From assembly GCA_965243255.1 (NCBI GenBank), contig CBDEUH010000004.1:766979-830978 (forward strand): 64,000 nt of DNA, given 5' to 3'. Both the position numbers and the translations under genes were made by a program. The stretch comes from Dehalococcoidia bacterium (GTDB lineage: Bacteria > Chloroflexota > Dehalococcoidia > Lucifugimonadales > UBA3495). Shown here piece by piece: positions 9,162 through 36,146 of the stretch (within the stretch, counting starts at the first letter, position 1; every line of letters starts with the position of its first letter). Under the pieces are notes generated by a model. That model worked only from the letters and a program-made list of their open reading frames with translations, had not been told where the DNA came from and did no database searches.

Positions 9162-9521
9162 ATGACCACGCCGGAGTACCAAGTTCACAGCGAGCGCTTT
9201 CTCGCTCAAGCCAGGACTGAACTGGCCACTGGGGACTTGCAGCAGGCCTCGGAGAAAGGATGGGGCGCCGTCGCGCAAATGCTTAAAGCCGTTGCTGAGA
9301 AACGTGGCTGGGAACACAACCGCCACCGGCACCTTTCCCGCATCGCCAGCCGTTTGCGCTCCGAGATTGGGGACCGGGACATCGTTCGCCTTTTCGCTAC
9401 CGCGAGCCTACTGCACGAGAACTTCTACGAGAACGAGTTGTCCGCCGATGACGTCGCTGAGGGTCTGGATGACGTGGAGTCGCTAGTTGGCAAGGTAGCG
9501 CCTCTGCTGGAAACAACATGA
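9162..9521 (+). CDS. PaREP1-like (HEPN-related) helical protein
   Basis: C-terminal 119 codons of track ORF 9027..9521. GGAG lies 6 nt before the ATG at 9162. The pattern FLAQARTELATGDLQQASEKGWGAVAQMLKAVAEKRGWEHNRHRHL...LLHENFYE matches my memory of the PaREP1 family. Its stop overlaps the mutase start (ATGA at 9518). Confidence 0.55.
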   Translation: MTTPEYQVHSERFLAQARTELATGDLQQASEKGWGAVAQMLKAVAEKRGWEHNRHRHLSRIASRLRSEIGDRDIVRLFATASLLHENFYENELSADDVAEGLDDVESLVGKVAPLLETT

Positions 9522-11146
9522 CCAAGAATCACGACGAGTACCGCACGCTTTCGGGGATACCTGTTGAGGGGCTTTATTCGGCGGAGGGGCTGGAGACTGG
9601 CGGGTTTGATGCGGGGCGGGATTTGGGGGCTCCGGGGGAGTTTCCCTTTACGCGGGGGGCTTATCCCAATATGTACCGGGGGCGGCTTTGGACGCGGCGG
9701 CAGATTGCCGGGTTCGGAACGGCGGCGGCGACCAACGAGCGGTACCGGTTCCTGCTGGCGCACGGGCAGACCGGGTTGAGCACGGACTTTGACCATCCGA
9801 CGCTGACCGGGTATGACTCGGACCACGAGCTGGCCGAGGGCGAGGTGGGTCGCCTGGGTGTCGCTATCGATAGCGCCGCCGACATGGGCGAGCTGTTTGA
9901 CGGCATCCCGCTGGAACAGGCCAGCGTGTCGCTGACCATCAACCATCCGGCCATCGTGCTGCTGGCGATGTTTCTGCACACCGCCGAGAAGCGGGGGACG
10001 CCCTGGCCGTCGCTGCGCGGCACGGTGCAGAACGACTCGCTGAAGGAGTTTCACGGGCAGAAGACCTTTGCGCTGCCGCCGGGGCCGGCGCTGAAACTGA
10101 CGACGGACGTGGTGGAGTTCTGCACGGAGCGGGTGCCGAACTGGTACACCATATCCATCAGCGGGTACCACACGCGGGAGGCGGGGTCGGACGCGGTGCA
10201 GGAGCTGGCGTTCACCATCGCGCAGGGGATGGCCTACGTGGAGTCGGCGATGCGGCGGGGGCTACCGGTGGACGCCTTTGCGTCGCGGCTGTCGCACTTC
10301 TTCGGGGTGCACAACGACTTCTTCGAGGAAATCGCCAAGTTTCGGGCGGCGCGTCGGATGTGGGCGCGGCTGATGCGGGAACGCTACGGAGCGACGCGCC
10401 CGGAGTCGATGCGGATGCGGTTCCACACGCAGACGTTAGGCTCGACGCTGGTGCGGCAGGACCCGCTGAACAACATCCTGCGGGGCGGATTGCAGGCGTT
10501 GGCCGCCGTGCTGGGCGGCACGCAGTCGCTGCACGTGAGCGGGTACGACGAGGCTTACGACATACCGTCGGAAGAGGCAATGAGGATTTCGCTGGCGACG
10601 CAGATGATACTGGCGCATGAGTCGGGAGTGGCGGCGACGCCGGATCCGCTGGGCGGGTCGGCGTACCTGGAGACGCTGACGAACAAGCTGGAAGAGGCGG
10701 CGATGGGCTACATCGAGCGCATCGACGGGATGGGCAACGGGAGCATGCTGGACGGGATGCTGGAGGCCGTGGGCAGCGGGTACATCGAGAGCGAAATCGC
10801 GCAGGCGTCGTACTGCTACCAGCAGCGGGTGGAGAGCGGCGAGTACACGATTGTAGGGGTCAATGACGAATATCGGGACGAAGCGGCATCGGCCGGGTCG
10901 TTGGAGCTGTTTGAGTTTGACCAGGCGGAGGAGGACCGGCAGATTGAGCGTCTGGTCGCCGTGCGTCGGGGTCGGAGCGAGGCGGATGCGTCGGCGGCGT
11001 TGCGCGGAGTGGTCAAGACGGCGCGGGCCGAGGGCAACCTGATGCCGGCGATACTGGAGGCGGTGGCCGCCGGCGTTACGGAGGGTGAGATAATGGGGGC
11101 GCTGCGGGATGAATGGGGTGAATACGTTGACCCTGGGGTGTTTTAG
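9518..11146 (+). CDS. methylmalonyl-CoA mutase-family large (substrate-binding) subunit
   Basis: Track ORF. Motifs [44 protein letters not shown]. Confidence 0.9.
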
Positions 11147-11163
11147 ACGGTGGCTGCGGAATC

Positions 11164-11601
11164 ATGACTACGGCTGTTGAATCGGGTAGGCTCAATCCGC
11201 CGCGGGTGTTGTTGGCCAAGCTGGGGCTGGACGGGCACGACCGGGGGGTGAAGGTGATCGCGCGGGCGCTGCGGGACGCAGGGATGGAGGTGGTGTACCT
11301 GGGGATGCGGGTTAGTGCCGACCAGGTGGCGGCGGCGGCGGCGCAAGAGGACGTGGACGTGGTTGGCATCAGCATCCTGTCGGGGGCGCATATGCGGTTG
11401 ATGCCCAGGATGGTGGATGCGTTGGAGAGGCACGGGCTGAGGGGCGGTGACGACGGAGATAGCGTGATATTGCTGGTGGGTGGGACGATACCCGACGGCG
11501 ATGTCGAATCACTGCGAGAGATGGGGGTGGACGGCGTGTTTCCGGTAGGTACGTTCACGAGCGAGATGGTGGAGTTCATTCGGTCGGGCGTGGTCAAGTG
11601 A
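11164..11601 (+). CDS. cobalamin-binding small subunit of acyl-CoA mutase
   Basis: Track ORF. B12-binding DxHxxG motif (LGLDGHDRG) and Rossmann-like order. Confidence 0.9.
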   Translation: MTTAVESGRLNPPRVLLAKLGLDGHDRGVKVIARALRDAGMEVVYLGMRVSADQVAAAAAQEDVDVVGISILSGAHMRLMPRMVDALERHGLRGGDDGDSVILLVGGTIPDGDVESLREMGVDGVFPVGTFTSEMVEFIRSGVVK

Positions 11602-15107: not shown

Positions 15108-16382
15108 ATGCCGAACAATGATGACGATGCTCTCACCGAGCGAGGGACTGGCCTACCCCTGCCGTTGACTGGGGTTAGGGTGCTTGATGCTACGCATATT
15201 GTGGCGGGGCCGTTTTGTTCGCAGATTCTGGCGGATATGGGGGCCGAGGTTATCAAGATTGAGCGGCCTCGTACCGGGGACTTGGCCCGGGGGCGGGAGC
15301 CTTTCATCGGGGATGATGATACTGGACGGGTGAGCAGCCGTTTTCTGGGGGTGAACCGCAACAAGAAGTCGGTTACGCTGGATTTGCGCAACGAGGTCTG
15401 CAAGGGAGCGTTTGAGAGGCTGGTGGCCAACTCGGACGTGCTGCTGGACAACTGGGGGCCGGGCGCCTTCCGGCGGCTGGGTTTGGGCTACGACCGGCTC
15501 AGCGAGATAAACCCCCGGTTGATTTACGCCGAGATCTCCGGCTATGGCGACGGCGAGGGGGCGCGTGGGCCGTATTCGGACTGGCCGGCCAACAACCTGG
15601 CGATACAGGCGATGTCGGGATGGATGGAAGTTACCGGCGAGCCGGGCGGGCGGCCCCAGGCGGTGGGCGACAACATCGGCGACTCCGTGCCGGGAGTCTG
15701 GACGGCGCTGGGCATCGTGCTGGCGCTGGAAACTCGGCGACAGACCGGGGTGGGACAGCACGTTGACGTGGCGATGTACGACTGCATGACGTCGCACCTG
15801 GTGAGCAACATGAACGCCTACCAGGCTACGGGGCATAACAGCGACTACACCCATGGACGCACCCGGCAGGCGTCGCTGGGGCCGGGGCTCGTCTTTGAGG
15901 CGGCGGATGGTTATGTAATCATGGCCGGAGTGCGCAGTCCGCAAAGGTTGGCCGCGATGTGGGATTTGATTGGCCGCAGCGATTTACCGGAGCAGGACGA
16001 ACGGTATTTGCAGCAGTTTCCGGACGCCGATTTTGTGTTTGAACGGGTGATACCGGCCATTGAAGAATGGTCGTCGCAGCGTCCCAAGTGGGAGGTGGCG
16101 GGCAAGCTGACGGAAATCGGGTTTTCCATGGGCGTTACGCAGAGCATATCCGACCTGGCGAACTGCCCGCAGCTGGCGGCGCGGGGAATGTACGTTGACA
16201 CCGACGACTCCATCGGCGGAACTTTCCGGTCGCTGGCGACGCCGATACGACTTACGGGGTGCGAGCCGTCCGCCGCCGGAACGCCGCCCACGCTGGGGCA
16301 GCACAACGCCGAGATTCTATGCACGCTGGGCGGGCTGACGGTGGAACAGTTGGCGGAATTGGAGGCGGAGGGAGCCGTTTGA
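15108..16382 (+). CDS. family III CoA-transferase (CaiB/BaiF type)
   Basis: Track ORF. GVRVLDATHIVAGPFCSQILADMGAEVIKIERP. Confidence 0.9.
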   Translation: MPNNDDDALTERGTGLPLPLTGVRVLDATHIVAGPFCSQILADMGAEVIKIERPRTGDLARGREPFIGDDDTGRVSSRFLGVNRNKKSVTLDLRNEVCKGAFERLVANSDVLLDNWGPGAFRRLGLGYDRLSEINPRLIYAEISGYGDGEGARGPYSDWPANNLAIQAMSGWMEVTGEPGGRPQAVGDNIGDSVPGVWTALGIVLALETRRQTGVGQHVDVAMYDCMTSHLVSNMNAYQATGHNSDYTHGRTRQASLGPGLVFEAADGYVIMAGVRSPQRLAAMWDLIGRSDLPEQDERYLQQFPDADFVFERVIPAIEEWSSQRPKWEVAGKLTEIGFSMGVTQSISDLANCPQLAARGMYVDTDDSIGGTFRSLATPIRLTGCEPSAAGTPPTLGQHNAEILCTLGGLTVEQLAELEAEGAV

Positions 16383-19024: not shown

Positions 19025-19194
19025 GCGGTGGTGGATGAGATCGTGAGGGGGCTCGCTCTTGACGCCAACGGTCTCCCGCCAGGATAGAGGGAGTTTGGCG
19101 CGGACCCTCGAATTACTGCGCTTGCCCATTGCGGAATCCCGGCGTAGAATGGCGGCACTTATCAACACCACAGAGAAATCAAGGAGAACCGGTC

Positions 19195-20409
19195 ATGGCA
19201 GAAGCGAAAGGCCCCCTGGACGGAATACGCGTAATTGACCTCGGTCGGCATCAGGCCGGCCCCCGCTGCGCTCAAGTTCTCGCCCGCCTGGGCGCGGAAG
19301 TCATAAAAGTCGAGCGCTTGGGCGGCGAGGAAACCCGTTACCATGCCCCCTGGGTTCGCAAGCAGTCGGCCTACTGGGTACAGTACAACAGCGGCAAGAA
19401 GAGCCTGAGCATCGACCTGCGCAAGGAAGAAGGCAAGGAAGTGCTCCGCAAGCTGGTCAAGGTCTCGGACGTCCTGCTGCAGAACTTCCGGCCCGGCACC
19501 ATCGACATCATGGGCTTCGGCTATGACGTTCTCTACGAGCTGAACCCCCGTATCGTCATGGTGAACGTCTCTGCCTACGGTCAGTTCGGCCCGTACCGGG
19601 ACCAGATTGGTTATGACCCCATCGGCCAGACGATGTCGGGAATCGCCATGGTAACCGGCGAGGAGGGAATGCCTCCGATTCGCGCCGGCGTGCCCATCAT
19701 CGACCGCACCACTGCTCTCCACGCGGCCATCGGTACGCTGGCTGCATTGCACGAGCGGGAATCTTCCGGCCTCGGTCAGTGCATTGACGCCTGCCTGGCG
19801 GACACCGGGTACAGCTATACGGAGATCCCCGTCACCGCATATCACGGCGCCGGCATTGAACCGCGTCGTGGCGAGTCGGCGGCGCCGCCGTCGGGTACCT
19901 ACCCGTGCAAGGACGGCTGGGTGCTGATTTCCGCAGGTGACCAGCACCACTGGCATCGCGTCTGTAACGCGCTGGGCAAGCCCGAGTGGCTGGAAGACCC
20001 GCGCTTTACCACCCGCCACGAGCGCGGACGTAACGGTGAGGCGGTCAACCAGGCCATGCGCGACCTGATGGCCGACATGACCATGCGGGAGGCCATCGCG
20101 CACTTCACGCATCACGACGTGGTTGCGGCGCCGGTGAACACCATCGCGCAGGCCGCCGCCGACCCGCACCCCTGGGAGCGGCGTGCCATGGTTGAGGTGG
20201 ACGACTTCCTGGCCGGCAGCATAGCCGTGTCCGGCGACTTCTGGCACTTCAGTCGGACGCCGGCGGTGGTGGGCACCACGCCGCGGGTTGGCGAGCACAA
20301 TGAGGACGTGCTGACGGGTCTGCTGGATTACACCGAAGAGCAGGTCCAAGCGCTGTACGAGGCCAACGTCATCGGCACCTTCGACCACTACGACGAAGTG
20401 CCCGGCTAA
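19195..20409 (+). CDS. family III CoA-transferase (CaiB/BaiF type), second paralogue
   Basis: Track ORF 19129..20409, trimmed to the ATG at 19195 with AAGGAG 8 nt upstream. GIRVIDLGRHQAGPRCAQVLARLGAEVIKVER. Confidence 0.9.
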   Translation: MAEAKGPLDGIRVIDLGRHQAGPRCAQVLARLGAEVIKVERLGGEETRYHAPWVRKQSAYWVQYNSGKKSLSIDLRKEEGKEVLRKLVKVSDVLLQNFRPGTIDIMGFGYDVLYELNPRIVMVNVSAYGQFGPYRDQIGYDPIGQTMSGIAMVTGEEGMPPIRAGVPIIDRTTALHAAIGTLAALHERESSGLGQCIDACLADTGYSYTEIPVTAYHGAGIEPRRGESAAPPSGTYPCKDGWVLISAGDQHHWHRVCNALGKPEWLEDPRFTTRHERGRNGEAVNQAMRDLMADMTMREAIAHFTHHDVVAAPVNTIAQAAADPHPWERRAMVEVDDFLAGSIAVSGDFWHFSRTPAVVGTTPRVGEHNEDVLTGLLDYTEEQVQALYEANVIGTFDHYDEVPG

Positions 20410-26674: not shown

Positions 26675-26922
26675 ACACCTGTTGGTGACCCGCGTTCCGG
26701 GTAGTGGTCGATGCCAGTCGGCCAGGACCTGCGGAACACGCGGGGCAAAAGGAAATCCGGTGAAAATCCGGTGCGGTCGCGCCACTGTAATTGGCGAGAC
26801 GCTCTCCCGTTGACCTCTTTCAGAAGAGGATCGTTGACGCAAACCACTGTCTGCTCAGCGCGGATGGGAAGGTGGAGAGTCGTCGCTATCAGCCATTAGC
26901 CAGGAAGCCTGCCATCAGGTGT
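26675..26922 (+). promoter_or_regulatory. cobalamin (B12) riboswitch aptamer
   Basis: Core AAAAGGAAATCCGGTGAAAATCCGGTGCGGTCGCGCCACTGTAA (26747..26790). B12-box-like ACCACTG (26843..26849) followed by GGGAAGG (26866..26872). 3' element AGCCAGGAAGCCTGCC (26898..26913). P1 ACACCTG (26675..26681) pairs with CAGGTGT (26916..26922). Confidence 0.85.
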
Positions 26923-27011
26923 GTTCTGGCTGCACTTCGCGGAACGAGTGAAGCGGATTTACCGGTGAATCGGGCATGGCTGGCCAAGGTGAGCTGATGC
27001 CCGTGAACACA

Positions 27012-27174: not shown

Positions 27175-28917
27175 ATGAACATGGAAAGAATACTGATACA
27201 GCGTTTCAAAACGGTAATGGCCGTTGGGTGCGGCCTATTGCTGGTGCTGGCGGTGGCCTGCGGGACTGCCGCCGAACCCAGTGAGACGGCCCCGTCCACG
27301 GGTAGCAGCGACGTACAGGCGACCGCGCCGGCGGCGGCTGCATCGCAACAGCAGGTCGCGACCGCCGCGCCGGTGCAACAAGCAGATTCGTCGACTTCCG
27401 CTCAACAACAGAACGAGCCCGCTGAAGCCGCAATGGCGGAGCGGCCCATATTGAACGCAGGCGTCATCTGGTTGGACAGTCCCCTGGACCCGGTGCAGAG
27501 CGGTTGGGTTGCCAATCAATCGGGGATGTCGGAGAACCTGTTCCGACTGTCGGGAAGCACCCTCAGTCCGGAGCCGTGGCTGGCAACGGAAGCCACGCAT
27601 GTGGACCCATTGACCTGGGAGATAGAAATCCGGTCGGGGGTCAAGTTCCACAATGGCAACCCGTTGGATGCGGAAGCGGTGAAGGCTTCCCTGGAGCGGG
27701 CCATTCGGATGTCGGAAGCGGCGGCGGATATATTGTCTGCCGACACGATATCGGTTAAGGACGCGCAGACCATCACCATCACCACCACGGCGCCGCAGCC
27801 GACGTTGCCGGGCCTGCTGATTACTCCGGTATTCGGCATTCACGACGCGGTGGCGGCGGACGCCGCCGGCGAGGGCAATTTCATCGAAGCGCGCGCGCTT
27901 ACCGGGCCGTACATTCCCACGGCTTACGTCCAGCTGGAGCACCTTGACAGCGTAGCCAACGACGATTACTGGGGTGGACCGCCCCCGCTGGCCGGCATCA
28001 ATAGCCTTGCGATCCCAGATACCAACAGCCGGGAGCTGGCGCTGCAGGCCGGAGACGTGGACATCATCATCAACGTGTCACCGGATGGATCCCAGGTAAT
28101 CAACGCCAACCCGGGCACGCAAACCGCGACCGCCGGCCTGGGCACCGCCTTGGTGCTATGGTGGGTCAACTTCGAACGCGGCACGCTGGCCGACCCGCTG
28201 GTGCGTCGGGCGGTGGCGCACGCCATTGACCGGGAGAGCATCGCCGGGCTGGTGGCGCCCTCCGGAGCGGGGTCATTCGCAGAGTTTATGCTGCCGGAAG
28301 TGGTGGTCTCGTGTCCTGACGTACAGGCGCCGGCCTATGATCCTGACGAAGCCCGCCATTTGCTGGAAGATGCCGGCTACTCGGACAGCGACGGCGACGG
28401 AATCCTGGACAAGGATGGTCAGCCGCTGGAAATTATCATCGGCGGTTACCCTCAGCGGTTCCAGCTGCCGATTATGGCCGAAGCCGCACAGGCGATGCTG
28501 GCCGATGTTGGAATCAAGGTGAACGTGCAAATCACCGAATGGTCGGTGGTAAAGGAACCCGCCTGGGACCTCTTCGGCTGGTACAACGGTGTCGTGGAAG
28601 GCGGCGGAGACCCGGTGTTCAACATCAGCAAATTCGCCGGACTGCGAGCCGATGCCGGCGGCACGGGCGGCAACAACTACGGGCACTATGACAATACCGC
28701 CCTGGCGGAAATAGTGGGGCCATCGGTATCGGTGTCCGACGTAGATGGCCGAAAGGAGATTGCCTGCCAGGCCCTGGCAGTCATCACTGACGAAACGGCG
28801 TTCCTGCCGGTGGCGCACATGAATCTGGTGTTCGGCATCAGTGACAAGGTCACCGATTTCTCGCCCCATCCGTCCAGTCTCTATTTCTTCGACCATCGCG
28901 TTGGCCTGTCCGAGTGA
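27175..28917 (+). CDS. ABC transporter substrate-binding lipoprotein, family 5 (peptide/nickel type), riboswitch-controlled
   Basis: Track ORF. Signal peptide with lipobox LAVAC-G, then a Ser/Ala/Gln linker. Family-5 SBP body. Confidence 0.85.
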   Translation: MNMERILIQRFKTVMAVGCGLLLVLAVACGTAAEPSETAPSTGSSDVQATAPAAAASQQQVATAAPVQQADSSTSAQQQNEPAEAAMAERPILNAGVIWLDSPLDPVQSGWVANQSGMSENLFRLSGSTLSPEPWLATEATHVDPLTWEIEIRSGVKFHNGNPLDAEAVKASLERAIRMSEAAADILSADTISVKDAQTITITTTAPQPTLPGLLITPVFGIHDAVAADAAGEGNFIEARALTGPYIPTAYVQLEHLDSVANDDYWGGPPPLAGINSLAIPDTNSRELALQAGDVDIIINVSPDGSQVINANPGTQTATAGLGTALVLWWVNFERGTLADPLVRRAVAHAIDRESIAGLVAPSGAGSFAEFMLPEVVVSCPDVQAPAYDPDEARHLLEDAGYSDSDGDGILDKDGQPLEIIIGGYPQRFQLPIMAEAAQAMLADVGIKVNVQITEWSVVKEPAWDLFGWYNGVVEGGGDPVFNISKFAGLRADAGGTGGNNYGHYDNTALAEIVGPSVSVSDVDGRKEIACQALAVITDETAFLPVAHMNLVFGISDKVTDFSPHPSSLYFFDHRVGLSE

Positions 28918-28960: not shown

Positions 28961-29908
28961 ATGTTTGCATACCTGACCCGACGGCTGGCTACCCTGCCGC
29001 TACTGCTGCTGGGAATCTCGGCGGTCAGTTTCGCATTGCTGAATCTGGCCCCGGGAGACCCGGCGGAGATTGTGCTGCGTCAGCGTCACCCGGGGCAGCT
29101 GCCCAGCCCGGTGGAAGTGGCGGCCATGCGAGAGGAGTTGGGGCTGAACGCCCCCTTGCCGGCGCAATACGTGCGCTGGGCGACTCAGGCGCTGGCTGGA
29201 GACCTGGGCAAGTCATTCACAACAGAACAGCCGGTGGCCGCCCAACTGGCGCGCCGCACCGTACCGACGGCCCTGCTCACGGTCGCTGCGTTCTCTCTGG
29301 CGCTGATGGTTGCCGTGCCCATGGGCATATTATCGGCCCGCAAACGGGGCAGCGCCCTGGATACCGTGGCGCGTCTGGTGGCGCTGGTAGGGGCGGCGGC
29401 CCCATCCTATGCCCTGGCCTACGGGCTAATCATACTGTTCGCGGTGAAACTCTCCTGGCTGCCGGCCCTGGGCTACGGCTCGCCGGCGCAGGTGATACTG
29501 CCAGCCTTCGCGTTGTCGCTGGGGCCCATGGCGCAGCTGATGCGGCTAATCCGGGCCAGCATGCTGGAGACCCTGGGTGAGGACTACATCCGAACGGCGC
29601 GAGCCAAGGGGTTATCCGAGCGAGTGGTTGCCTTCCGGCACGCCCTTCGCAACGCGCTGCTGCCGGCCATTGGAGCTACGGGGGTGAATCTGGGATACCT
29701 GCTCAGTGGAGCCGTCATCGTGGAAACCATCTTTACCTGGCCGGGCTTGGGTCAACTGATGGTAGGCGCGGCGGTGACCCGGGATTACCCCGTGGTGCAG
29801 GGGTTTGTGACGTACATCGCAGTGGTAGTGCTGCTAGTTAACTTGGCCGCAGACATTGCTCTGCGCATCGCCGACCCCCGTTTGCGTTTCGGGCGGGACG
29901 AGCTGTAG
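28961..29908 (+). CDS. ABC transporter permease (DppB/NikB type)
   Basis: Track ORF. Loop DYIRTARAKGLSERVVAFRHALRNALLP. Confidence 0.9.
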   Translation: MFAYLTRRLATLPLLLLGISAVSFALLNLAPGDPAEIVLRQRHPGQLPSPVEVAAMREELGLNAPLPAQYVRWATQALAGDLGKSFTTEQPVAAQLARRTVPTALLTVAAFSLALMVAVPMGILSARKRGSALDTVARLVALVGAAAPSYALAYGLIILFAVKLSWLPALGYGSPAQVILPAFALSLGPMAQLMRLIRASMLETLGEDYIRTARAKGLSERVVAFRHALRNALLPAIGATGVNLGYLLSGAVIVETIFTWPGLGQLMVGAAVTRDYPVVQGFVTYIAVVVLLVNLAADIALRIADPRLRFGRDEL

Positions 29909-29914
29909 CATCCC

Positions 29915-30811
29915 ATGACGAGCAGAGCTGAACAGTCCGGGGAACACGTTCCCGTCCTAGCCGTGGCCAGCGGCGCGCGTCAGAGACGGCGCTGGACCGG
30001 TCTGCTGCGGGAGCCGGGAACCGCGCTGGGCCTGTTCCTGGTATTGACGCTGCTGTCGGCCGGGGTACTGGCTCCCTGGCTGCCCCTGGATGATCCGACC
30101 CAAATCAATCTGCCCGACCGGTTGCTCCCACCGTCAGCAGAGCGTCTGTTGGGCACCGACCACCTGGGCCGGGATACTTTCAGCCGGATTGTGCATGGGG
30201 CTCGGATGACGCTGTTGGCCGCCACCGTGACCCTGGGTTTGAGCATGGGCATCGCGTTGACCGTGGGCATCTTGTCCGGGTACCACGGCGGCTGGGCGGA
30301 CACCGCGCTGATGGGCGTGGTGGACCTGCTGCTAGCGTTTCCTTCGCTGATATTGGCGTTGGCAGTGGCCGGCGCATTGGGGCCAGGATTGTTCAACGTG
30401 CTGCTGGCTGCGGGAGCAGTCTGGTGGGTTGGTCACGCTCGCATCATCAGGGGCGTTACGCTGGCAACCCGGCAACAGGAGTACGTGACGGCGGCGCGGG
30501 CCACGGGAGCCAGCGGCTTCAGGATCATCGTGCGGCACATTGCGCCCAACATTATCGGGCCGATTATCGTGATCGCCTCGCTGGACGTGGGATGGATTAT
30601 CCTGGGTATCGCGGGCCTGAACTTCCTGGGGCTGGGGGCGCAGCCGCCCACGCCGGAATGGGGGGCGATGCTCAACGATGCTCGCCCGCATCTACAGACT
30701 ACCCCGAGGCTGCTGCTGCTGCCGGGCACGGCTATCTTCGTCGCCGTGCTGGGGTTCAACCTGTTGGGCGACGGATTGAGGGACTTGCTGGACCCTCGGA
30801 CTACGGGATAA
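29915..30811 (+). CDS. ABC transporter permease (DppC/NikC type)
   Basis: Track ORF. Loop EYVTAARATGASGFRIIVRHIAPNIIGP. No ATPase gene follows. Confidence 0.9.
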   Translation: MTSRAEQSGEHVPVLAVASGARQRRRWTGLLREPGTALGLFLVLTLLSAGVLAPWLPLDDPTQINLPDRLLPPSAERLLGTDHLGRDTFSRIVHGARMTLLAATVTLGLSMGIALTVGILSGYHGGWADTALMGVVDLLLAFPSLILALAVAGALGPGLFNVLLAAGAVWWVGHARIIRGVTLATRQQEYVTAARATGASGFRIIVRHIAPNIIGPIIVIASLDVGWIILGIAGLNFLGLGAQPPTPEWGAMLNDARPHLQTTPRLLLLPGTAIFVAVLGFNLLGDGLRDLLDPRTTG

Positions 30812-31694
30812 TCCCCAGCCTCTCCGCCAGCCACGCGCCCCGGACGACTGCGTGCTCGTGTCCGCCACCCTCGGCGGCGCCGTCGTAAAGGCGGAAATCG
30901 CAATTGGGCAGGGCGGCAGCCAACTCTTCGGCAAGGGGTAGGGGGCACAGGCTCCGGTCGGAACGGCCCGCGCTCAGCAACACGGGAGCCGACACGGACG
31001 GAGCGGCCGGCAGCGGATTGAGCAGCGACAGGGTTTCCGTGACGGCTTGCCGGCTTTCGGGATGGGAGCGCAAATAGTCGCCCAGCTCGCCCAGGGGGTA
31101 GCCCAAGCCGGGCTGCAAGGCCGTCGGATGCCCCAGGGCCATGGGCGTATCGGCGGCGACGGCGGCCACATTGGGACGCCGGGCGGCTGCGACCAGAGCC
31201 AGGGCGGCGCCAAGGCCGGCGCCGGTCAGGGCCACCGCGCTAGTCTGCGCTACGTTTTGGGCAGACAGAGCGTCCATGGCGCGGAGGGCGTCGGCGTAAG
31301 CGCCGAGCAGGACGTAGGTTTGGGCTGTTTCGACGCCATCGGTAAGCAGGCCGGGGTAGCTGGCGCGATATATCACGTCGCTGTTGCGCTGGCCCCGGTG
31401 GGTGGCGTTCATCACTACGGCGCGGTGACGCAAGGACGTGTAGATTATGTCGTGCACGCTGGCGTAGTCGGGCATCCGGATTAGCGCGGGGAATGGGCCG
31501 CCGCCGTCTTTGGGGACGGAGAGCCAGGCGAACAGCCGGTGGCCGTCGGTGGTGTCGTAGTGCATCCGGTACACGTCCCACTCGGGCTGGGAGTAGAACG
31601 TGTCATGCTCCAGCGTAACGTTGAGGTCGGTCTCGGCCAGTTGGGCATCGGTTTGCTCCCAAAAGGCGGCCGGGGATGATGGCATACTGGTCAT
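30801..31694 (-). CDS. acetyl-xylan-esterase-like alpha/beta hydrolase paralogue lacking the nucleophile serine
   Basis: Track ORF 30801..31877, trimmed to the ATG at 31694 (MTSMPSSPAAFWEQ...). It aligns by eye with the next gene. The GxSxG position reads TGAGLG instead of GSSQGG. The Asp (GRSDRSLCP) and His (GGGHEH) positions are retained. Confidence 0.65.
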   Translation of the reverse strand: MTSMPSSPAAFWEQTDAQLAETDLNVTLEHDTFYSQPEWDVYRMHYDTTDGHRLFAWLSVPKDGGGPFPALIRMPDYASVHDIIYTSLRHRAVVMNATHRGQRNSDVIYRASYPGLLTDGVETAQTYVLLGAYADALRAMDALSAQNVAQTSAVALTGAGLGAALALVAAARRPNVAAVAADTPMALGHPTALQPGLGYPLGELGDYLRSHPESRQAVTETLSLLNPLPAAPSVSAPVLLSAGRSDRSLCPLPLAEELAAALPNCDFRLYDGAAEGGGHEHAVVRGAWLAERLGIIP

Positions 31695-31704
31695 GGTGAA
31701 CCAC

Positions 31705-32637
31705 TCAGGCCGGCGTCGTGCCGATGCGCTGCTGCAGCCAGGCGGCCTCGCGGGCAGGGTATTGGTGGGCGTTGCCGTGTCCGGAGTTGGGGAAGAGCCA
31801 GAGCTCACGCTGGCCGCCGAGCGAGCGGTAGGCAGCGTAGCTAGTTTCGGGCGGGCAGACTTCGTCCTCCATAGCAATGCCTACGACCATAGGGCACTTG
31901 ATGCGTGGGGCGAAGTTCACAGCGTCGAAATAGCGCAGAGTTTCCAGCATTTGCTCGACGCGGTCGGGGTAGGCGCGGGCGTAGCAGGAAAGTTCGTCGT
32001 AGGGGTAGCTGCGCAGCATCTGCATCGATTCGGGGAAGCAGCACAGGAAGGGATAGCCGGATACGCCGGCCTTGATTTCCGGGCGCAGGGCCGAGGTTAT
32101 CAGGGTCAAGCCGCCGCCCTGGCTGCTGCCGCAGCAATAGATTCGGTCGGGGTCAATTTCGGGTCGGGACAAGAGGAAATCGACACCGCGCAAGCAGTCG
32201 GAGATGACGCCCTTGTAGCTGTACGCATTGCGGTCTTCCAGGCCGTTGGTGAGCAGACCGGGGTAGCCGGGGTTGAACTTGCTGCTGCTGGGCAGCTTGC
32301 CGCGCACGGCAACCGACAGCGCGGCCACGCCTTTGCCGCCCCAGTCCCGGCGCAGGGACGGTTCAGACTTGTAACCGGGCAGGATCAGCACCGCCGGGAA
32401 CGGGCCATCGCCCACGGCCGGCACGCTGTACCAGGCAAAAATCTCCAGATCGTCCAGGCTGCGGTAGCCGACCTGGTACACCTTGACGGCGTCGGTGCTG
32501 CGGAGGGGGTCGTGGTTGATTCCGGCATCCAGAGGGATTGCGGCCAACTCCGCCTGGACTCCGTCCCAGAACGGGTCAAAGTCATCGGGACAACTGACCT
32601 TCGTAGTGAAGGCTACCAAGTCTGCCTGAGTTGCCAT
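31705..32637 (-). CDS. acetyl xylan esterase / cephalosporin-C deacetylase-family alpha/beta hydrolase
   Basis: Track ORF 31705..32688, trimmed to the ATG at 32637 with GGAG upstream. Nucleophile elbow CCGSSQGGG, acid MEDEVCPP, His NSGHGNAH. Confidence 0.75.
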   Translation of the reverse strand: MATQADLVAFTTKVSCPDDFDPFWDGVQAELAAIPLDAGINHDPLRSTDAVKVYQVGYRSLDDLEIFAWYSVPAVGDGPFPAVLILPGYKSEPSLRRDWGGKGVAALSVAVRGKLPSSSKFNPGYPGLLTNGLEDRNAYSYKGVISDCLRGVDFLLSRPEIDPDRIYCCGSSQGGGLTLITSALRPEIKAGVSGYPFLCCFPESMQMLRSYPYDELSCYARAYPDRVEQMLETLRYFDAVNFAPRIKCPMVVGIAMEDEVCPPETSYAAYRSLGGQRELWLFPNSGHGNAHQYPAREAAWLQQRIGTTPA

Positions 32638-32766
32638 GCTGCATACTCCGTCGGCGCCGATTGGCCGGTTTTCCACCGCATTATACACGGTGTACCCGGT
32701 GCTATAATGCGCTCACCTGTCGCCGGGCTGACTGCGCCGGCGCGCACTTGCGGAGATGAAAACGAT

Positions 32767-33654
32767 ATGAAAGCTGGGTTTATTGGCGTCGGCAACATGG
32801 GCAACCCAATGGCTGCGAACATGATAAAGGCCGGGCATCAACTGACCGTCCACGACCTGCGTCGTGAGTCGGCCACCAACCTGCTGGAGATGGGCGCGGA
32901 GTGGGCGGATACGCCGGCCGGATGCGTTGCCGGGAAGGATGCCGTATTCACCTCGCTGCCGGTGCCGCGGGACGTGGAGGCGGTGGTGATGGGCGAGAAC
33001 GGCATCATGTCCGCCGCCGGCGCCGGCGACGTGTACGTTGACCTGTCCACCAACTCGCCCACGGTCATACGGAGCATTCATGCCGAATGCGCCGCCCGGG
33101 GCGTAACCGTGCTAGACGCTCCGGTGAGCGGCGGCGTGTACGGCGCGGCGGCCGGCACGCTGGCGGTGATGGTCGGCGGCGACGAAGCGACCTACAACAC
33201 CGTAAAGCCCATGCTGGACGCCATCGGCGCGCACGTGGTTTATTGCGGCGAAATTGGCAACGGCATGGTTACCAAAATCTGCAACAACCTGCTGACCATG
33301 GGCATCGGCGTGCTGATGGCGGAGGCGCTGACGCTGGGCGTCAAGGCGGGCGTGCCCCTGGAGACGCTGGCCGACGTAATCGCCAACAGCAGCGGCGGCA
33401 GCCGTCGCCTGGTGGAAAAGCACCCGCGCTACCTGTTCGCTGGCAACTTCGAGCCGGGCTTCGCCACGGCGCTGGCCGCCAAGGACGTGCGCCTGGCTAC
33501 AGACCTGGGGCGTGAGTACGGCATCCCGATGGAGCTGTCCAACCTGGTTGACCAGCGCCACGTGGAAGCAATGTTCCATGGCCTGGGGCCGGAGGACTCC
33601 GACGCCGTATCCAAGCTGCAGGAAGAGAAGTCCGGCGTGCAACTGCGGTTCTGA
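32767..33654 (+). CDS. NAD(P)-dependent 3-hydroxyisobutyrate dehydrogenase-family oxidoreductase
   Basis: Last 295 codons of track ORF 31600..33654. ATG at 32767 ([19 protein letters not shown]...). DAPVSGG and KICNN motifs. The upstream part of the ORF is antisense to the esterase genes. Confidence 0.85.
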
Positions 33655-33665
33655 CGAGGCTAACG

Positions 33666-33989
33666 TTGTTCCGCTCGGCTTATCCTGCCAGTGACCAGCC
33701 CCGGTACATCACCCGCTACGTGTATGCCGACACACAGCTGTCCACTCACGGCGGCAACGTGGGCCGGGTCAGCATTACCAGCGAGGAGCATACTCGCTTG
33801 CAACAGATGGCCGATTTCCTGGAACGCTGCTGCAACGACCTGGACGCCGCCGGCTACGACGTTATATCCATCACACCCGTCGTCAGTGGAAGAACGTCTT
33901 ACATGGCAACCAATACCGAGTTGGCAGATCCCGGGCACGGCTACAGCGTTACCGACGGGTTGATTGTTACCGGGAAACTGCGAGAATAA
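33666..33989 (+). CDS. hypothetical protein (107 aa)
   Basis: Track ORF. TTG start 6 nt after GAGG and 11 nt after the preceding stop. The GYDVISITPVV...GLIVTGK tail is vaguely DUF4177-like. No firm family. Confidence 0.45.
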   Translation: MFRSAYPASDQPRYITRYVYADTQLSTHGGNVGRVSITSEEHTRLQQMADFLERCCNDLDAAGYDVISITPVVSGRTSYMATNTELADPGHGYSVTDGLIVTGKLRE

Positions 33990-34015: not shown

Positions 34016-35044
34016 ATGACCAGCAGCGCCGAACGGCACGTTGAAACCGCCGACACCATTGAGGCCATTGAGGAATGCTTCCGCCTGGGCTGGACCGACG
34101 GCCTGCCGGTGGTTCCGCCGGCCGATTATAAAGTCCGGGAGATGCTCTCCGTGGCCGGACTCACCGGCGAGGAGGAACTGCTGAACCTGGATATGCGGAG
34201 CCGGGTGATTACGTCGGAGAACGCCGCCGCCAACGCGGTGATGGCCGGCTGCCAGGCCGAATACTTCCCGGTGCTGGTTACGGCGCTGAAAACCCTGGAG
34301 GAGGAACGCAACTTCGTCAACATGGCCGCGTCCTCTACCAGTTCGCCAAGCATCCTGATGGTGCTGAACGGCCCGATACGGGACGCGCTGGGCATCAACA
34401 GCCGGGACGGATTGTTCGGCCCCGGCTTCCGCGCCAACGCCAGCATCGGGCGAGCCGTGCGCCTCTGCTTTATGAACGGGTTCGACGCCTGGCCAGGCCA
34501 GCTCGACCGGGGCACCATGGGCACGCCGGCCAAGTACACCTTCTGCATCGCCGAGAACGAGGAAACCTCGCCCTGGGAACCGCTGCACGTCAGCCGGGGC
34601 TTCGACGCCTCCGACAGCGTGGTTACCGTAGCCGTGGCCTACAACCCCGTCAGCGTGCCCAACAGCTACGGGCATACCGGACGCCAGATCCTGAACTCCA
34701 TTTGCGACTCCCTCCGTTCCGCCACCCTGGTCCATCGCTACCCGGCTCAGTGGGTCATTGTCATCGGGCCGGAGCACGCCCTGACCCTGCAAGGCGAGGG
34801 CTGGAGCCGCCGGGACATCCAGGATTACCTCATTGAGAACAGCGGACGCTCCCGCGCCGAGTTGATACGCTTGGGCTCCAAGCAGGGGCCGGAGCGACCC
34901 GGCGACGAGGACGTCATCATGCGCTGCGCCAACGAGCCCGACGACATCCTGATTATGCACGGCGGCGGCACCGGCGGACGTTACAGCGCCATCATCGACA
35001 CCACGGGCTACCGCATCCGCACCCGCAAGATTGGCGCCGACTAG
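34016..35044 (+). CDS. hypothetical protein (342 aa), family not recognised
   Basis: Track ORF. AGGAG lies 6 nt before the ATG. Good coding texture (…CFRLGWTDGLPVVPPADYKVREML…AGCQAEYFPVLV…). The antisense ORF 33941..35065 is Gly/Ala/Val junk. Confidence 0.7.
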   Translation: MTSSAERHVETADTIEAIEECFRLGWTDGLPVVPPADYKVREMLSVAGLTGEEELLNLDMRSRVITSENAAANAVMAGCQAEYFPVLVTALKTLEEERNFVNMAASSTSSPSILMVLNGPIRDALGINSRDGLFGPGFRANASIGRAVRLCFMNGFDAWPGQLDRGTMGTPAKYTFCIAENEETSPWEPLHVSRGFDASDSVVTVAVAYNPVSVPNSYGHTGRQILNSICDSLRSATLVHRYPAQWVIVIGPEHALTLQGEGWSRRDIQDYLIENSGRSRAELIRLGSKQGPERPGDEDVIMRCANEPDDILIMHGGGTGGRYSAIIDTTGYRIRTRKIGAD

Positions 35045-35142: not shown

Positions 35143-35709
35143 ATGACGACCGCCGAATCCATGAGCCGCCTCCGGCTCGTCAACCCCAAGGGCACCGAGC
35201 TGCCCCAGAGCGAATTCCACATGAACGACCGCTCCGGCGGCCTGGCCGGCAAGCGTCTGGGCCTGATGGAGAACTCCAAGGCCAACGCCGACAAGCTGCT
35301 GCATGAGTTGGGCAACATCCTCAACGAGCGGCACGGCTTCTCCGAGGTCAGGTATTTCAGCAAGCACCACGCCAGCCTGCCCGCCAAGCAGGACGTCATC
35401 GACTCCATCCTCGGCGAGGTTGACTACCTCATCACCGGGGTGGGTGATTGAGGGTCCTGCAGTTCGTGCAGTGTGCACGACGGAATCGACATGGAAAAGC
35501 GCGGCGTCCCGACGGCTGCCATCATCACCCACGTGTTCCTCAACACCGCCCAGGCCATGACCCGGATGATGGGCGTGCCCGAATATCGCTACGTGGTGGC
35601 GCAGCATCCCCTGTCCAGCCTCACCGACGACGAAGTGAAGGCTCGGGCCAACGAACTGGCCGACGAGGTTGAGTCCATTCTGACGGGCGTACCCGTAGCG
35701 TCTGCCTAA
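35143..35709 (+). CDS. UGSC-motif selenoprotein candidate (TGA at 35449..35451 read as Sec)
   Basis: Track ORFs 35143..35451 and 35473..35709 share a frame. Read-through gives LITGVGD-U-GSCSSCSVHDGIDMEKRGVPTAAIITHVF. Stem-loops lie directly 3' of the TGA. GGAGG lies upstream of the ATG at 35143. Confidence 0.7.
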
Positions 35710-35721
35710 CCCGGCGGGCTG

Positions 35722-36114
35722 TTGGTGTCAACTACCGACGGGTCAGCGTCGCCTCGCCCGGCTGTGAACCCGGCCATCCGGGCGGGCCTGACGGGCGAGG
35801 TTGAGGTGACCATCGCCTCGGAGCATCTGGCGCCCCACGTGCCGAAGTTCTGCACGCCGGCGATGCTCTTCATCATCGAGCAGGGTTGCTACCGTGCGGT
35901 AGTATCCCTGCTTTACCCGGGGCAAACCGTGGTCGGCTACCGGTTCGACATCAGGCACCTGGCGGCGGCGGGCATCGGCGACCGCGTAACGGCACGCTGC
36001 ACGCTGACCGAGGTTGCATACAACCGGCTGGAGTTTTCGGCCCAGGTACAGCGGGACGATACGTTACTGGGCACGGCCCAGCTCTACCTGGCGGTAGTGG
36101 ATCAAGCATCGTAG
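35722..36114 (+). CDS. hotdog-fold thioesterase-family protein
   Basis: Track ORF (TTG/GTG start). The pattern FCTPAMLFIIEQGCYRAV...GQTVVGYRFDIRHLAAAGIGDRVTARCTL is typical of the small FlK/4HBT-like hotdog thioesterases. Confidence 0.65.
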   Translation: MVSTTDGSASPRPAVNPAIRAGLTGEVEVTIASEHLAPHVPKFCTPAMLFIIEQGCYRAVVSLLYPGQTVVGYRFDIRHLAAAGIGDRVTARCTLTEVAYNRLEFSAQVQRDDTLLGTAQLYLAVVDQAS

Positions 36115-36146
36115 GGGCGAATGGTTATTCGCCCCTGCTACTTTTT
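36113..36146 (+). terminator. intrinsic terminator; copy 2 of the GGGGCGAAT/ATTCGCCCC element
   Basis: AGGGGCGAAT (36113..36122), loop GGTT, ATTCGCCCCT (36127..36136), then GCTACTTTTT. It overlaps the TAG stop of the thioesterase gene. Confidence 0.65.

What the first reader, a model, noticed from the sequence alone, without database searches (positions are those of the whole stretch)
35143..35709. In-frame TGA fuses two track ORFs into a UGSC-motif selenoprotein candidate
Track ORFs 35143..35451 and 35473..35709 are in the same frame (offset 330 nt). Only TGA (35449..35451) plus seven sense codons separate them. Read-through gives ...DYLITGVGD-[TGA]-GSCSSCSVHDGIDMEKRGVPTAAIITHVFLNTAQAM..., a U-G-S-C redox-type motif followed by a second CSSC pair.

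RNA directly 3' of the TGA can fold in two ways:
- CUGCA/UGCAG (35457..35461 with 35467..35471).
- GUGCA/UGCAC (35466..35470 with 35474..35478), closed by GUC/GAC (35454..35456 with 35479..35481).

The second fold puts a G/U-containing apical loop about 20 nt after the UGA, as in bacterial SECIS elements. From memory, 'UGSC-containing protein' / 'UGSC family (seleno)protein' is a named but functionally uncharacterised family from marine metagenome selenoproteome surveys. Ordinary gene callers would truncate or split the gene here.
Basis: partly seen in the sequence, partly recalled or inferred. Interest (0 to 1): 0.8.

Follow-up and report, generated by a model that had tools for sequence, protein, structure and literature searches.

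The report
UGSC-family selenoprotein gene split by callers
The in-frame TGA at 35449 is very likely a selenocysteine codon in one 188-residue gene of the known but uncharacterised UGSC selenoprotein family, so the finding is real but not new; the useful extra is that this gene almost always sits beside an unannotated partner gene.

Summary
ORFs 35143..35451 and 35473..35709 share a frame and are separated only by TGA (35449-35451) plus seven sense codons.

With Cys in place of the TGA, the 188-aa product matches NCBIfam NF041046 (156.8 bits, cutoff 125) and Pfam PF24696 end to end. Cys homologues carry GDCGSC with Cys in the TGA column.

- All 17 close relatives, and 16 loci from two divergent clades, keep TGA there.
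- The sequence after it is under purifying selection (dN/dS 0.06-0.22).
- TGA is an ordinary stop for 15 of 42 other window genes.
- A 17-nt hairpin (35464-35480), 12 nt after the UGA, meets all four published bacterial SECIS criteria.
- That hairpin is nucleotide-invariant across six codons where neighbouring synonymous sites vary.
- One clade shows a compensatory U-A to A-U swap in the stem.

No selA, selB, selD or tRNA-Sec lies in the window, so the decoding machinery is untested.

The family has been described since 2007-2008, with unknown function. New here: a 342-aa protein (34016..35044) with no Pfam, NCBIfam or PDB match lies next to the UGSC gene in 97 of 117 loci from bacteria and archaea. 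CoA-ester enzymes are often nearby. The predicted fold looks flavodoxin-like, not thioredoxin-like.

The parts
35143..35709 (+). Single UGSC-family selenoprotein gene (188 aa including Sec; stop TAA 35707-35709), wrongly split into two ORFs by standard gene calling
   Evidence: Translation. NF041046 156.8 bits over residues 36-181 and PF24696 191.3 bits over residues 12-181 of 188, both spanning the TGA. Shine-Dalgarno GGAGG upstream of ATG 35143, and none before the internal GTG 35473 or ATG 35491.
35449..35451 (+). In-frame TGA, proposed selenocysteine codon (first position of the U-G-S-C motif)
   Evidence: It aligns with the invariant Cys of GDCGSC in Cys homologues. TGA occupies this column in 17 related loci, against TGC or TGT in 80 Cys-form loci, and in two further clades.
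35452..35463 (+). 12-nt spacer between the UGA and the hairpin (codons Gly-Ser-Cys-Ser, containing the resolving Cys of UGSC)
   Evidence: Among the in-frame close relatives these four codons vary only synonymously (GGC/GGG, TCC/TCG/TCT, TGC/TGT, AGC/AGT), so they are translated in this frame.
35464..35480 (+). SECIS-like hairpin: 7-bp stem UCGUGCA/UGCACGA (35464-35470 with 35474-35480) and apical loop GUG (35471-35473)
   Evidence: -8.2 kcal/mol, 19 nt from the UGA to the loop, G then U at the start of the loop: all four bSECIS criteria quoted in PMC13188914 are met. Codons +5 to +10 use one codon each in 11 sequences. Found in 11/11 Sec forms and 8/80 Cys forms. One compensatory U-A to A-U change in the NC10 clade, and loop GUA in a third clade.
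34016..35044 (+). Conserved partner gene: 342-aa protein of an unannotated family, directly upstream of the UGSC gene
   Evidence: No Pfam or NCBIfam hit and no PDB sequence hit. At least 7,701 homologues, all without Pfam domains. Adjacent and co-oriented with UGSC in 97 of 117 loci. Cys79 invariant in 89/89 sequences.
35722..36114 (+). FlK-like hotdog-fold acyl-CoA thioesterase gene, 12 nt after the UGSC stop; probably the last gene of the same transcription unit
   Evidence: PF22636 FlK 64.1 bits and PF03061 4HBT. Conserved only in the closest relatives, L085 and L003.
36111..36138 (+). Terminator-like hairpin (12-bp stem followed by a T run) closing the partner-UGSC-thioesterase unit
   Evidence: Consensus scan. 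This is a pattern match only.

Best explanation
35143..35709 is one gene for a 188-residue selenoprotein of the UGSC family. During translation, the hairpin at 35464-35480 most likely acts as a bacterial SECIS element. It would recruit SelB carrying Sec-tRNA(Sec), so that selenocysteine is inserted at UGA 35449-35451 and translation continues to TAA 35707.

In the protein, Sec is the first residue of the U-G-S-C motif. In a confident model of a Cys homologue, this motif sits at the junction of a beta-strand and the N-terminus of an alpha-helix, in a flavodoxin-like alpha/beta domain. Sec probably acts as the attacking redox nucleophile and forms a selenenylsulfide with the Cys three residues later.

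The protein most likely works with the product of the adjacent 342-aa gene (34016..35044), which has one invariant Cys. Together they would form a two-protein Sec/Cys-dependent enzyme. Recurrent neighbours (family III CoA-transferase, LysR regulators, and a thioesterase here) point to a small organic acid or CoA ester as substrate. One locus suggests re-reduction by thioredoxin.

Shown: the in-frame conserved TGA, family membership, selection on the downstream part, the conserved hairpin, and the gene pairing. Inferred: SelB-dependent decoding, the selenenylsulfide chemistry, the physical partnership, and the substrate class.
For: Family and column
- The full-length match to NF041046 and PF24696 spans the TGA.
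- Cys homologues have an invariant GDCGSC with Cys in the TGA column and align through to the C-terminus.

Conserved TGA and translation beyond it
- TGA is conserved in 17 close loci and in two clades with about 36-40% N-terminal identity.
- dN/dS after the TGA is 0.06-0.22. TGA ends 15 of 42 ordinary genes in the window.
- Codons +1 to +4 change only synonymously.
- There is no ribosome-binding site for an internal restart.

Hairpin
- It meets the published bSECIS criteria.
- Six consecutive codons are codon-invariant, against 5 of about 39 comparable codons nearby.
- It is kept through a compensatory pair change that costs two amino-acid changes.
- It is rare in Cys forms, 8 of 80.

Family-wide pattern
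- 124 of the 150 best representative clusters end exactly at this column, and 114 of these end in GD.

Partner and context
- The partner is adjacent in 97 of 117 loci across proteobacteria, actinobacteria, Chloroflexi, NC10 and haloarchaea.
- Family III CoA-transferase lies within 6 kb in 47 of 80 Cys-form loci, and LysR in 59 of 80.
- One locus reads TrxB-Trx-partner-UGSC (L100).

Structure
- AlphaFold model: pLDDT 83, pTM 0.79, with the motif at the beta3/alpha3 junction.
Against: - No selA, selB, selD or tRNA-Sec lies in the window or in any held locus. The Sec-decoding trait of this organism is therefore unverified.
- Rfam has no match for the hairpin.
- Its folding energy in context is no better than shuffled sequence.
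- Covariation rests on one event, which 57 of 500 shuffles reach.
- The hairpin overlaps conserved codons, so part of its conservation is protein-level.
- The functional model is inference. The partner's structure model failed (pLDDT 47.6).
- The thioredoxin link comes from a single locus.
- The 80 Cys-form loci are taxonomically redundant, with many Achromobacter and Mycobacterium.
- At least one locus with 10 kb of upstream DNA lacks the partner (L001).
Confidence: 0.85

Rival explanations
1. The TGA is a real stop. The locus encodes two separate polypeptides: a 102-aa N-terminal part, and a 72-78-aa C-terminal part restarted at GTG 35473 or ATG 35491. These would assemble as a split protein.
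For: Gene callers annotate it this way in every relative; both halves are called as separate PF24696 genes. GTG 35473 is conserved at the same offset.
Against: - The GTG is part of the invariant hairpin, which explains its conservation.
- No Shine-Dalgarno sequence precedes GTG 35473 or ATG 35491, whereas ATG 35143 has GGAGG.
- Codons +1 to +4 between the TGA and the GTG change only synonymously, so they are translated.
- A split would delete the family's only invariant motif residues, G-S-C.
- Cys homologues are single chains.
Confidence: 0.04
2. UGA is read through without selenium. A near-cognate or suppressor tRNA inserts Trp, Cys or another residue, perhaps helped by the downstream hairpin, and the product is full-length but not a selenoprotein.
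For: Sec machinery was not found in the 64 kb available. Downstream structures can stimulate read-through in general (general knowledge, not tested here).
Against: - The column is Cys in all 80 full-length homologues, the classic Cys/Sec pair signature.
- The hairpin matches the SelB-type bSECIS model in loop sequence and spacing.
- The family is an accepted selenoprotein family in organisms that decode Sec (PMC1976440, PMC2398784, PMC5029168).
- Chloroflexi include selenoprotein users (PMC1794560).
Confidence: 0.07
3. The gene is a pseudogene, or the TGA is a sequencing or assembly error in a Cys-type (TGC/TGT) gene.
For: A single base separates TGA from TGC or TGT. One related contig (L003, about 2x coverage) is full of frameshifts.
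Against: - The same TGA appears in 33 independently assembled loci from three clades.
- 124 of the 150 best representative protein clusters end at this column.
- The downstream part is under strong purifying selection.
Confidence: 0.01
4. UGA is reassigned genome-wide as a sense codon (Gly or Trp, as in translation tables 25 or 4) in this organism.
For: None specific. It was considered because an in-frame TGA is the only anomaly.
Against: TGA terminates 15 of 42 well-supported genes of at least 150 aa in the window. No other genuine in-frame TGA exists in 64 kb.
Confidence: 0.01

Closest known systems
UGSC-containing protein / 'UGSC family (seleno)protein' (NCBIfam NF041046, Pfam PF24696); first reported by Zhang and Gladyshev (PMC1976440, 2007; PMC2398784, 2008)
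   Same: - Full-length HMM match above both curated cut-offs.
- U-G-S-C motif in the Sec/Cys column.
- About 190 aa.
- Sec forms far outnumber Cys forms in environmental data: 255 against 21 in GOS, and 124 against 9 among the 150 best representatives here.
- Function unknown.
   Different: Nothing in the gene itself; it is an ordinary member, here from a Chloroflexota-like genome.

My data disagree with the published guess of a 'likely Trx-like fold'. The model of a Cys homologue has beta-alpha-beta-alpha-beta-alpha-beta topology, with only weak flavodoxin-like PDB matches.

The near-obligate partner gene is not mentioned in any of the 8 papers in the library that name the family. The 'Unknown_1' domain reported fused to UGSC may be the same protein, but that figure is an image and could not be checked.
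Bacterial SECIS elements (consensus bSECIS model of Zhang and Gladyshev, as summarised in PMC13188914; archetype E. coli fdhF)
   Same: - The hairpin lies inside the coding region just after the UGA.
- 3-nt apical loop (allowed 3-9) and 7-bp upper stem (allowed 4-16).
- G followed by U at the start of the loop.
- 19 nt from the UGA to the loop (allowed 16-37).
- -8.2 kcal/mol (required -7.5 or lower).
- From my own knowledge of the E. coli fdhF work: a 17-nt minimal stem-loop placed 11 nt after the UGA suffices there. Here it is a 17-nt stem-loop 12 nt after the UGA.
   Different: There is no bulged U, and the sequence is unlike fdhF. Binding to SelB is not tested. No Rfam family matches it.
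Selenoprotein B subunits of glycine and D-proline reductases (GrdB/PrdB, Pfam PF07355)
   Same: UxxC Sec motif (Table 2 of PMC2398784). They are small redox selenoproteins that act with a second, separately encoded subunit. From general knowledge, glycine reductase draws electrons from the thioredoxin system, and one UGSC locus (L100) sits next to trxB-trxA.
   Different: No PF07355 match at E <= 0.01. The partner has no detectable similarity to any Pfam family. Genomic context is aerobic CoA-ester catabolism rather than Stickland fermentation. This is an analogy of organisation only, not membership.
Thioredoxin-fold CxxC/UxxC oxidoreductases (Trx, Prx-like and DsbA-like selenoproteins)
   Same: A redox-type U/C-x-x-C motif at the N-terminus of a helix that follows a beta-strand.
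   Different: The predicted topology is not the thioredoxin fold, and none of the 50 listed Foldseek PDB matches is described as a thioredoxin-family protein. No Trx-family Pfam hit.

Membership tests
UGSC family (seleno)protein (NF041046 / PF24696) | Score above the curated cut-off of the family HMMs over the full length | tested here: met
   NF041046 scores 156.8 bits against a cut-off of 125, covering profile positions 2-147 of 147. PF24696 scores 191.3 bits against 25, covering 2-171 of 172. Sec was replaced by Cys for the search.
UGSC family (seleno)protein (NF041046 / PF24696) | U/C-G-S-C motif, with Sec or Cys in the first position, preceded by G-D | tested here: met
   The window has GVGD-TGA-GSC. 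G, D, C, G, S and C are invariant in 16 full-length sequences. The column is TGA in 18 loci, TGC in 74 and TGT in 6.
Bacterial SelB/SECIS-dependent selenoprotein gene | In-frame UGA aligned with Cys in homologues, with coding conservation continuing downstream | tested here: met
   (dN/dS 0.06-0.22 downstream).
Bacterial SelB/SECIS-dependent selenoprotein gene | bSECIS hairpin: 3-9-nt loop, 4-16-bp stem, G in the first two loop positions, 16-37 nt from the UGA, MFE -7.5 kcal/mol or lower | tested here: met
   3-nt loop GUG, 7-bp stem, 19-nt spacing, -8.2 kcal/mol. Criteria are taken from PMC13188914 and tested. The hairpin is conserved in three clades with one compensatory pair.
Bacterial SelB/SECIS-dependent selenoprotein gene | The genome encodes selA, selB, selD and tRNA-Sec | not testable with these tools
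   Only 64 kb is available. No tRNA was found in the window. About 30 of the larger genes were annotated and none is selA, selB or selD. No tRNA-Sec in 17 related loci. Absence from the window says nothing about the genome.
Bacterial SelB/SECIS-dependent selenoprotein gene | Selenium is actually incorporated at the UGA position | not testable with these tools
   Needs 75Se labelling or mass spectrometry.
Thioredoxin-fold oxidoreductases | Thioredoxin fold | tested here: not met
   The AlphaFold model of Cys homologue P0008 (pLDDT 83) has beta-alpha-beta-alpha-beta-alpha-beta order. The best Foldseek PDB hits are flavodoxin-like (WrbA, azoreductase; TM 0.41-0.48), and none of the 50 listed is described as a thioredoxin-family protein.
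GrdB/PrdB selenoprotein B (PF07355) | Match to PF07355 | tested here: not met
   PF24696 is the only Pfam hit at E <= 0.01.

The most novel reading that the evidence does not exclude
The UGSC protein and the adjacent 340-370-aa protein, from a large family with no Pfam, NCBIfam or PDB relative, form a previously unrecognised two-subunit Sec/Cys-dependent enzyme. It would be present in bacteria and haloarchaea and act on a small carboxylic acid or CoA ester. The supporting context is family III CoA-transferase, LysR regulators and thioesterase genes nearby, with thioredoxin as a possible reductant. That would make it a new selenoenzyme class, and would give one of the most abundant aquatic selenoprotein families a first functional handle.
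Probability: 0.35. Interest if true: 0.6.

Novelty: new member of a known kind. Interest (0 to 1): 0.3.

Why it matters
For annotation, the locus should be one selenoprotein gene rather than two hypothetical ORFs. The same error is systematic: 124 of the 150 best representative clusters in a 1.84-billion-protein library are truncated at this codon.

Biologically, the gene is an ordinary member of a family listed since 2007-2008 and still without a function. The GOS survey ranks it among the most abundant selenoprotein families in surface waters.

The by-products of this check give a concrete route to that function:
- a near-universal partner gene from an unannotated family;
- a SECIS hairpin conserved across three clades;
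- a recurrent CoA-transferase and LysR neighbourhood;
- a predicted fold that is flavodoxin-like rather than thioredoxin-like.

The obvious next step is to co-express the two proteins, using Cys forms from culturable Achromobacter, Mycobacterium or haloarchaea.

Tried and rejected
- Rfam at gathering and relaxed thresholds: no SECIS family or any credible hit at the site.
- Folding energy of 35449-35500 against shuffles: not significant (z = -0.09).
- A lower stem extending the hairpin: not consistently paired; it rests on one G-C to C-G exchange and has broken pairs. I do not claim it.
- The exact-sequence contig look-up for the window's own N-terminal ORF and for P0001 found nothing.
- The genome-contig scan keyed on GDCGSC and so returned only Cys forms.
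- The metagenome scan gave only 3 loci.
I modelled Cys homologue P0008 instead.
- The partner's AlphaFold model was poor (pLDDT 47.6) and its Foldseek search was meaningless.
- A weak HisF hit from a shallow partner profile (E = 7.7e-4) disappeared with a more diverse profile. I treat it as spurious.
- Single-linkage clustering of neighbour ORFs was swamped by antisense ORFs of high-GC DNA. I replaced it with targeted tblastn.
- The apparent glutaredoxin-like N-terminal extension of P0270 has no Pfam support.
- My first claim of two invariant Cys in the partner was corrected. Only Cys79 is invariant (89/89); Cys177 is Ala in 8 of 89.
- Figure S1A of PMC2398784 (the UGSC/Unknown_1 fusion) is held only as an image, and motif searches of the supplements found nothing.

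Full report
**1. The observation**

- ORF 35143..35451 ends in TGA (35449-35451).
- The same frame continues through seven sense codons (GSCSSCS) to the GTG at 35473, where the second listed ORF starts, and on to TAA at 35707-35709.
- Read-through gives 188 residues with ...DYLITGVGD-U-GSCSSCSVHDGIDMEKRG...

A scan of both strands of the window looked for TGA codons with gene-like GC1/GC2/GC3 on both sides. This site was the only genuine case; the three other candidates lie antisense to real genes.

**2. What the gene is**

With Cys substituted for the TGA, the product matches two family models:
- NCBIfam NF041046 'UGSC family (seleno)protein': 156.8 bits, cut-off 125.
- Pfam PF24696 'UGSC': 191.3 bits, residues 12-181 matching profile positions 2-171 of 172.

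Both matches run straight across the TGA.

A search of 5.8 billion proteins returned two kinds of relative.
- Full-length proteins of about 190 aa, with an invariant GDCGSC whose first Cys falls exactly in the TGA column. They align through to the C-terminus.
- The closest relatives (66-86% identity), which are all truncated at ...GVGD, plus separate fragments that start at MEKRG.

DNA of 17 such relatives shows TGA in the same column every time, followed by GSCSSCSVHDGI in frame. The 80 Cys-form loci have TGC (74) or TGT (6) there.

**3. Is the TGA translated?**

- Relative to the window, the 72 codons after the TGA have dN/dS of 0.06-0.22. That is at least as constrained as the N-terminal half.
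- The four codons directly after the TGA (Gly-Ser-Cys-Ser) vary among the in-frame close relatives only synonymously. Translation therefore continues immediately past the UGA, rather than restarting at GTG 35473.
- ATG 35143 has a GGAGG ribosome-binding site. The internal GTG and ATG have none.
- TGA is the ordinary stop of 15 of 42 well-supported genes in the window, so the codon is not reassigned genome-wide.

These results argue against a split gene, a pseudogene, a sequencing error and codon reassignment.

**4. The RNA element**

Twelve nucleotides after the UGA lies a perfect 17-nt hairpin: UCGUGCA-GUG-UGCACGA (35464-35470, loop 35471-35473, 35474-35480).

A recent review (PMC13188914) summarises the published bacterial SECIS model as four criteria:
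- apical loop of 3-9 nt;
- upper stem of 4-16 bp;
- G in the first two loop positions, usually followed by G or U;
- 16-37 nt between the UGA and the loop, with MFE of -7.5 kcal/mol or lower.

This hairpin has a 3-nt loop GUG, a 7-bp stem, 19 nt of spacing and -8.2 kcal/mol. All four criteria are met. The same test passes in 11 of 11 distinct Sec-form sequences but in only 8 of 80 Cys-form sequences.

The comparative evidence is as follows.
- The six codons that make up the hairpin (TCG TGC AGT GTG CAC GAC) use one codon each in all 11 distinct close relatives.
- Only 5 of about 39 other degenerate codons with an invariant amino acid in the surrounding 75 codons are equally fixed. This points to constraint at the RNA level.
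- Within that clade the stem never varies, so it offers no covariation.
- I therefore fetched two divergent Sec-form clades with about 36-40% N-terminal protein identity.
- The NC10-type clade has UCGAGCA-GUG-UGCUCGA at the same position. This is a compensatory U-A to A-U exchange, and it is kept even though it changes Cys to Ser and His to Leu.
- The third clade keeps the stem, with loop GUA.

Limits on this evidence:
- Formally, all 70 cells pair and one pair is compensatory. This is a single event, and 57 of 500 shuffles reach it, so covariation alone is not significant.
- The MFE of the region alone is no better than shuffles.
- Rfam has no matching family.

**5. What could not be tested**

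The window has no tRNA gene. None of about 30 annotated larger genes is selA, selB or selD. The related loci hold no tRNA-Sec. With 64 kb this is uninformative either way.

The nearest named relatives of the neighbouring gene are MAGs labelled Chloroflexi, Dehalococcoidia and SAR202. Chloroflexi are reported to include selenoprotein users (PMC1794560).

**6. Comparison with what is known**

- The 'UGSC-containing protein' was reported in 2007 in an Olavius symbiont, with mention of Hyphomonas neptunium (PMC1976440).
- In the GOS survey it was one of the most abundant selenoprotein families: 255 Sec against 21 Cys sequences, a UxxC motif, and more frequent in non-marine samples (PMC2398784).
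- A 2026 review still lists it as functionally uncharacterised (PMC13188914).

The finding is therefore a correct rediscovery of a new member of a known family.

My survey agrees with the Sec bias.
- A phmmer search with the N-terminal half against 1.84 billion representatives gave 456 hits.
- Of the best 150, 124 end exactly at the Sec column (114 of these in 'GD'). Only 9 continue, with GDCGSC.
- A profile of truncated forms found 735 more, and the best 120 are all 93-102 aa.

Mis-annotation of this gene is systematic.

**7. New context: a partner gene**

The gene directly upstream (34016..35044, 342 aa) has no Pfam or NCBIfam match and no PDB match by profile. It nevertheless has at least 7,701 homologues, none carrying a Pfam domain.

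Its distribution across the 117 loci that carry a UGSC gene:
- In 97, a homologue is adjacent and co-oriented (81 upstream, 16 downstream). These come from beta- and alpha-proteobacteria, actinobacteria, Chloroflexi-like MAGs, NC10 and haloarchaea.
- In 7 more, it lies 0.5-4.8 kb away on the same strand, mostly separated by tandem DUF4058 genes.
- In 13, no homologue was found. Nine of these lack flanking DNA.

Cys79 (motif VMAGC) is invariant in 89 of 89 partner sequences. Cys177 is conserved in 81 of 89.

Beyond the pair, the recurrent neighbours are:
- a family III CoA-transferase, within 6 kb in 47 of 80 Cys-form loci and directly downstream in most beta-proteobacterial and mycobacterial ones;
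- a LysR regulator, in 59 of 80;
- in the window, an FlK-like acyl-CoA thioesterase 12 nt after the UGSC stop, followed by a terminator-like hairpin.

An Arthrobacter plasmid has thioredoxin reductase, thioredoxin, partner and UGSC in a row. There, UGSC carries a NifU-like C-terminal domain.

None of the 8 papers in the library that name the family mentions a partner. The 'Unknown_1' domain reported fused to UGSC in GOS reads may be this protein, but I could not check it.

**8. Structure**

An AlphaFold model of the Cys homologue P0008 (pLDDT 83, pTM 0.79) shows beta-alpha-beta-alpha-beta-alpha-beta order. The C-G-S-C motif sits at the end of strand 3 and the start of helix 3.

Foldseek against the PDB gives only weak flavodoxin-like matches (WrbA, azoreductase; TM 0.41-0.48) and, among the 50 listed, none described as a thioredoxin-family protein. 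The published guess of a thioredoxin-like fold is not supported.

The partner's model was too poor to use.

**9. Verdict**

This is a selenocysteine codon with a SECIS-like hairpin in a UGSC-family gene that gene callers split.

It is a new member of a known kind, so interest in the finding as stated is modest. The most novel reading left open is that UGSC and its unannotated partner form an unrecognised two-subunit Sec/Cys enzyme linked to CoA-ester metabolism.

Noticed in passing
window 34016-35044 (+), and the gene next to UGSC in L004-L116: A 342-aa protein from a very large family (at least 7,701 clusters) with no Pfam, NCBIfam or PDB relative. It is adjacent to UGSC genes in 97 of 117 loci from bacteria and haloarchaea. 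Cys79 is invariant, and DGLPVVPP, VMAGC, NGP, RAN..GRA.RL, EHA and GG..G..S motifs are conserved.
   Followed up: partly
L087-L094 (for example L092 2784-7267, L094 5384-9894): In the PANK22 metagenome relatives, 2-5 tandem DUF4058 genes sit between the partner gene and the UGSC gene. Defence-type genes lie just downstream: type ISP restriction-modification, a TIR-domain protein, HicAB, ParE, and a kinase-helicase with a PLD nuclease. The UGSC locus seems to border a variable island there.
   Followed up: no
window 26702-26930 (+): Cobalamin riboswitch (Rfam RF00174, 67 bits). It lies upstream of an SBP_bac_5 ABC-transporter binding protein (27175-28917) and two probable permease ORFs (28961-29908, 29915-30811; not annotated here).
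   Followed up: no
window 9518-11601 (+), 15108-16382 (+), 19129-20409 (+): A methylmalonyl-CoA mutase gene (9518-11146) is followed by a small ORF (11164-11601) that I did not annotate. Two family III CoA-transferase genes lie 15-20 kb from the UGSC pair; this is the enzyme family that flanks the pair directly in other lineages.
   Followed up: partly
L034, L035, L045 (haloarchaeal Cys forms), 18 nt after the TGC: Three haloarchaeal Cys-form genes have a hairpin (GUCGUGGUGCGUCUACGAC, -8.2 kcal/mol) at the same offset that passes the bSECIS filter. It may be chance, driven by similar codons, or a remnant of a former SECIS.
   Followed up: no
L100 4642-7816 (Arthrobacter sp. ERGS1:01 plasmid): Thioredoxin reductase, thioredoxin, partner and UGSC lie in one orientation. 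This UGSC (P0023, and also P0022) carries a C-terminal NifU-like domain with a CxxC motif.
   Followed up: partly
L101-L108 (NC10-type clade): The Sec motif there is U-S-S-C rather than U-G-S-C, and the second Cys pair is absent (SSCSSSS). Only U/C-x-x-C is common to the family.
   Followed up: partly
window 33666-33989 (+): A 107-aa ORF with no Pfam match lies just upstream of the partner gene. It is conserved (64-74% identity) only in the closest relatives: L085, L091, L092, L094 and L003.
   Followed up: partly
window 31600-33654 (+): The mechanical 684-aa ORF is mostly artefact. Only its last roughly 284 residues (from about 32800) match a real family: a NAD_binding_2/NAD_binding_11 beta-hydroxyacid dehydrogenase.
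   Followed up: partly
window 1050-2666 (-): A 538-aa protein made of four rhodanese domains (sulfurtransferase type), next to a molybdopterin oxidoreductase fragment at the window edge (2-949, -).
   Followed up: no
L095/L096 10462-16317: In one Sec-form relative, the UGSC pair is followed by genes resembling an NAD-dependent formate dehydrogenase (2Fe-2S thioredoxin-like, 51-kDa-type, and molybdopterin subunits). The large subunit is called as one 943-aa gene, so it has no in-frame stop.
   Followed up: no
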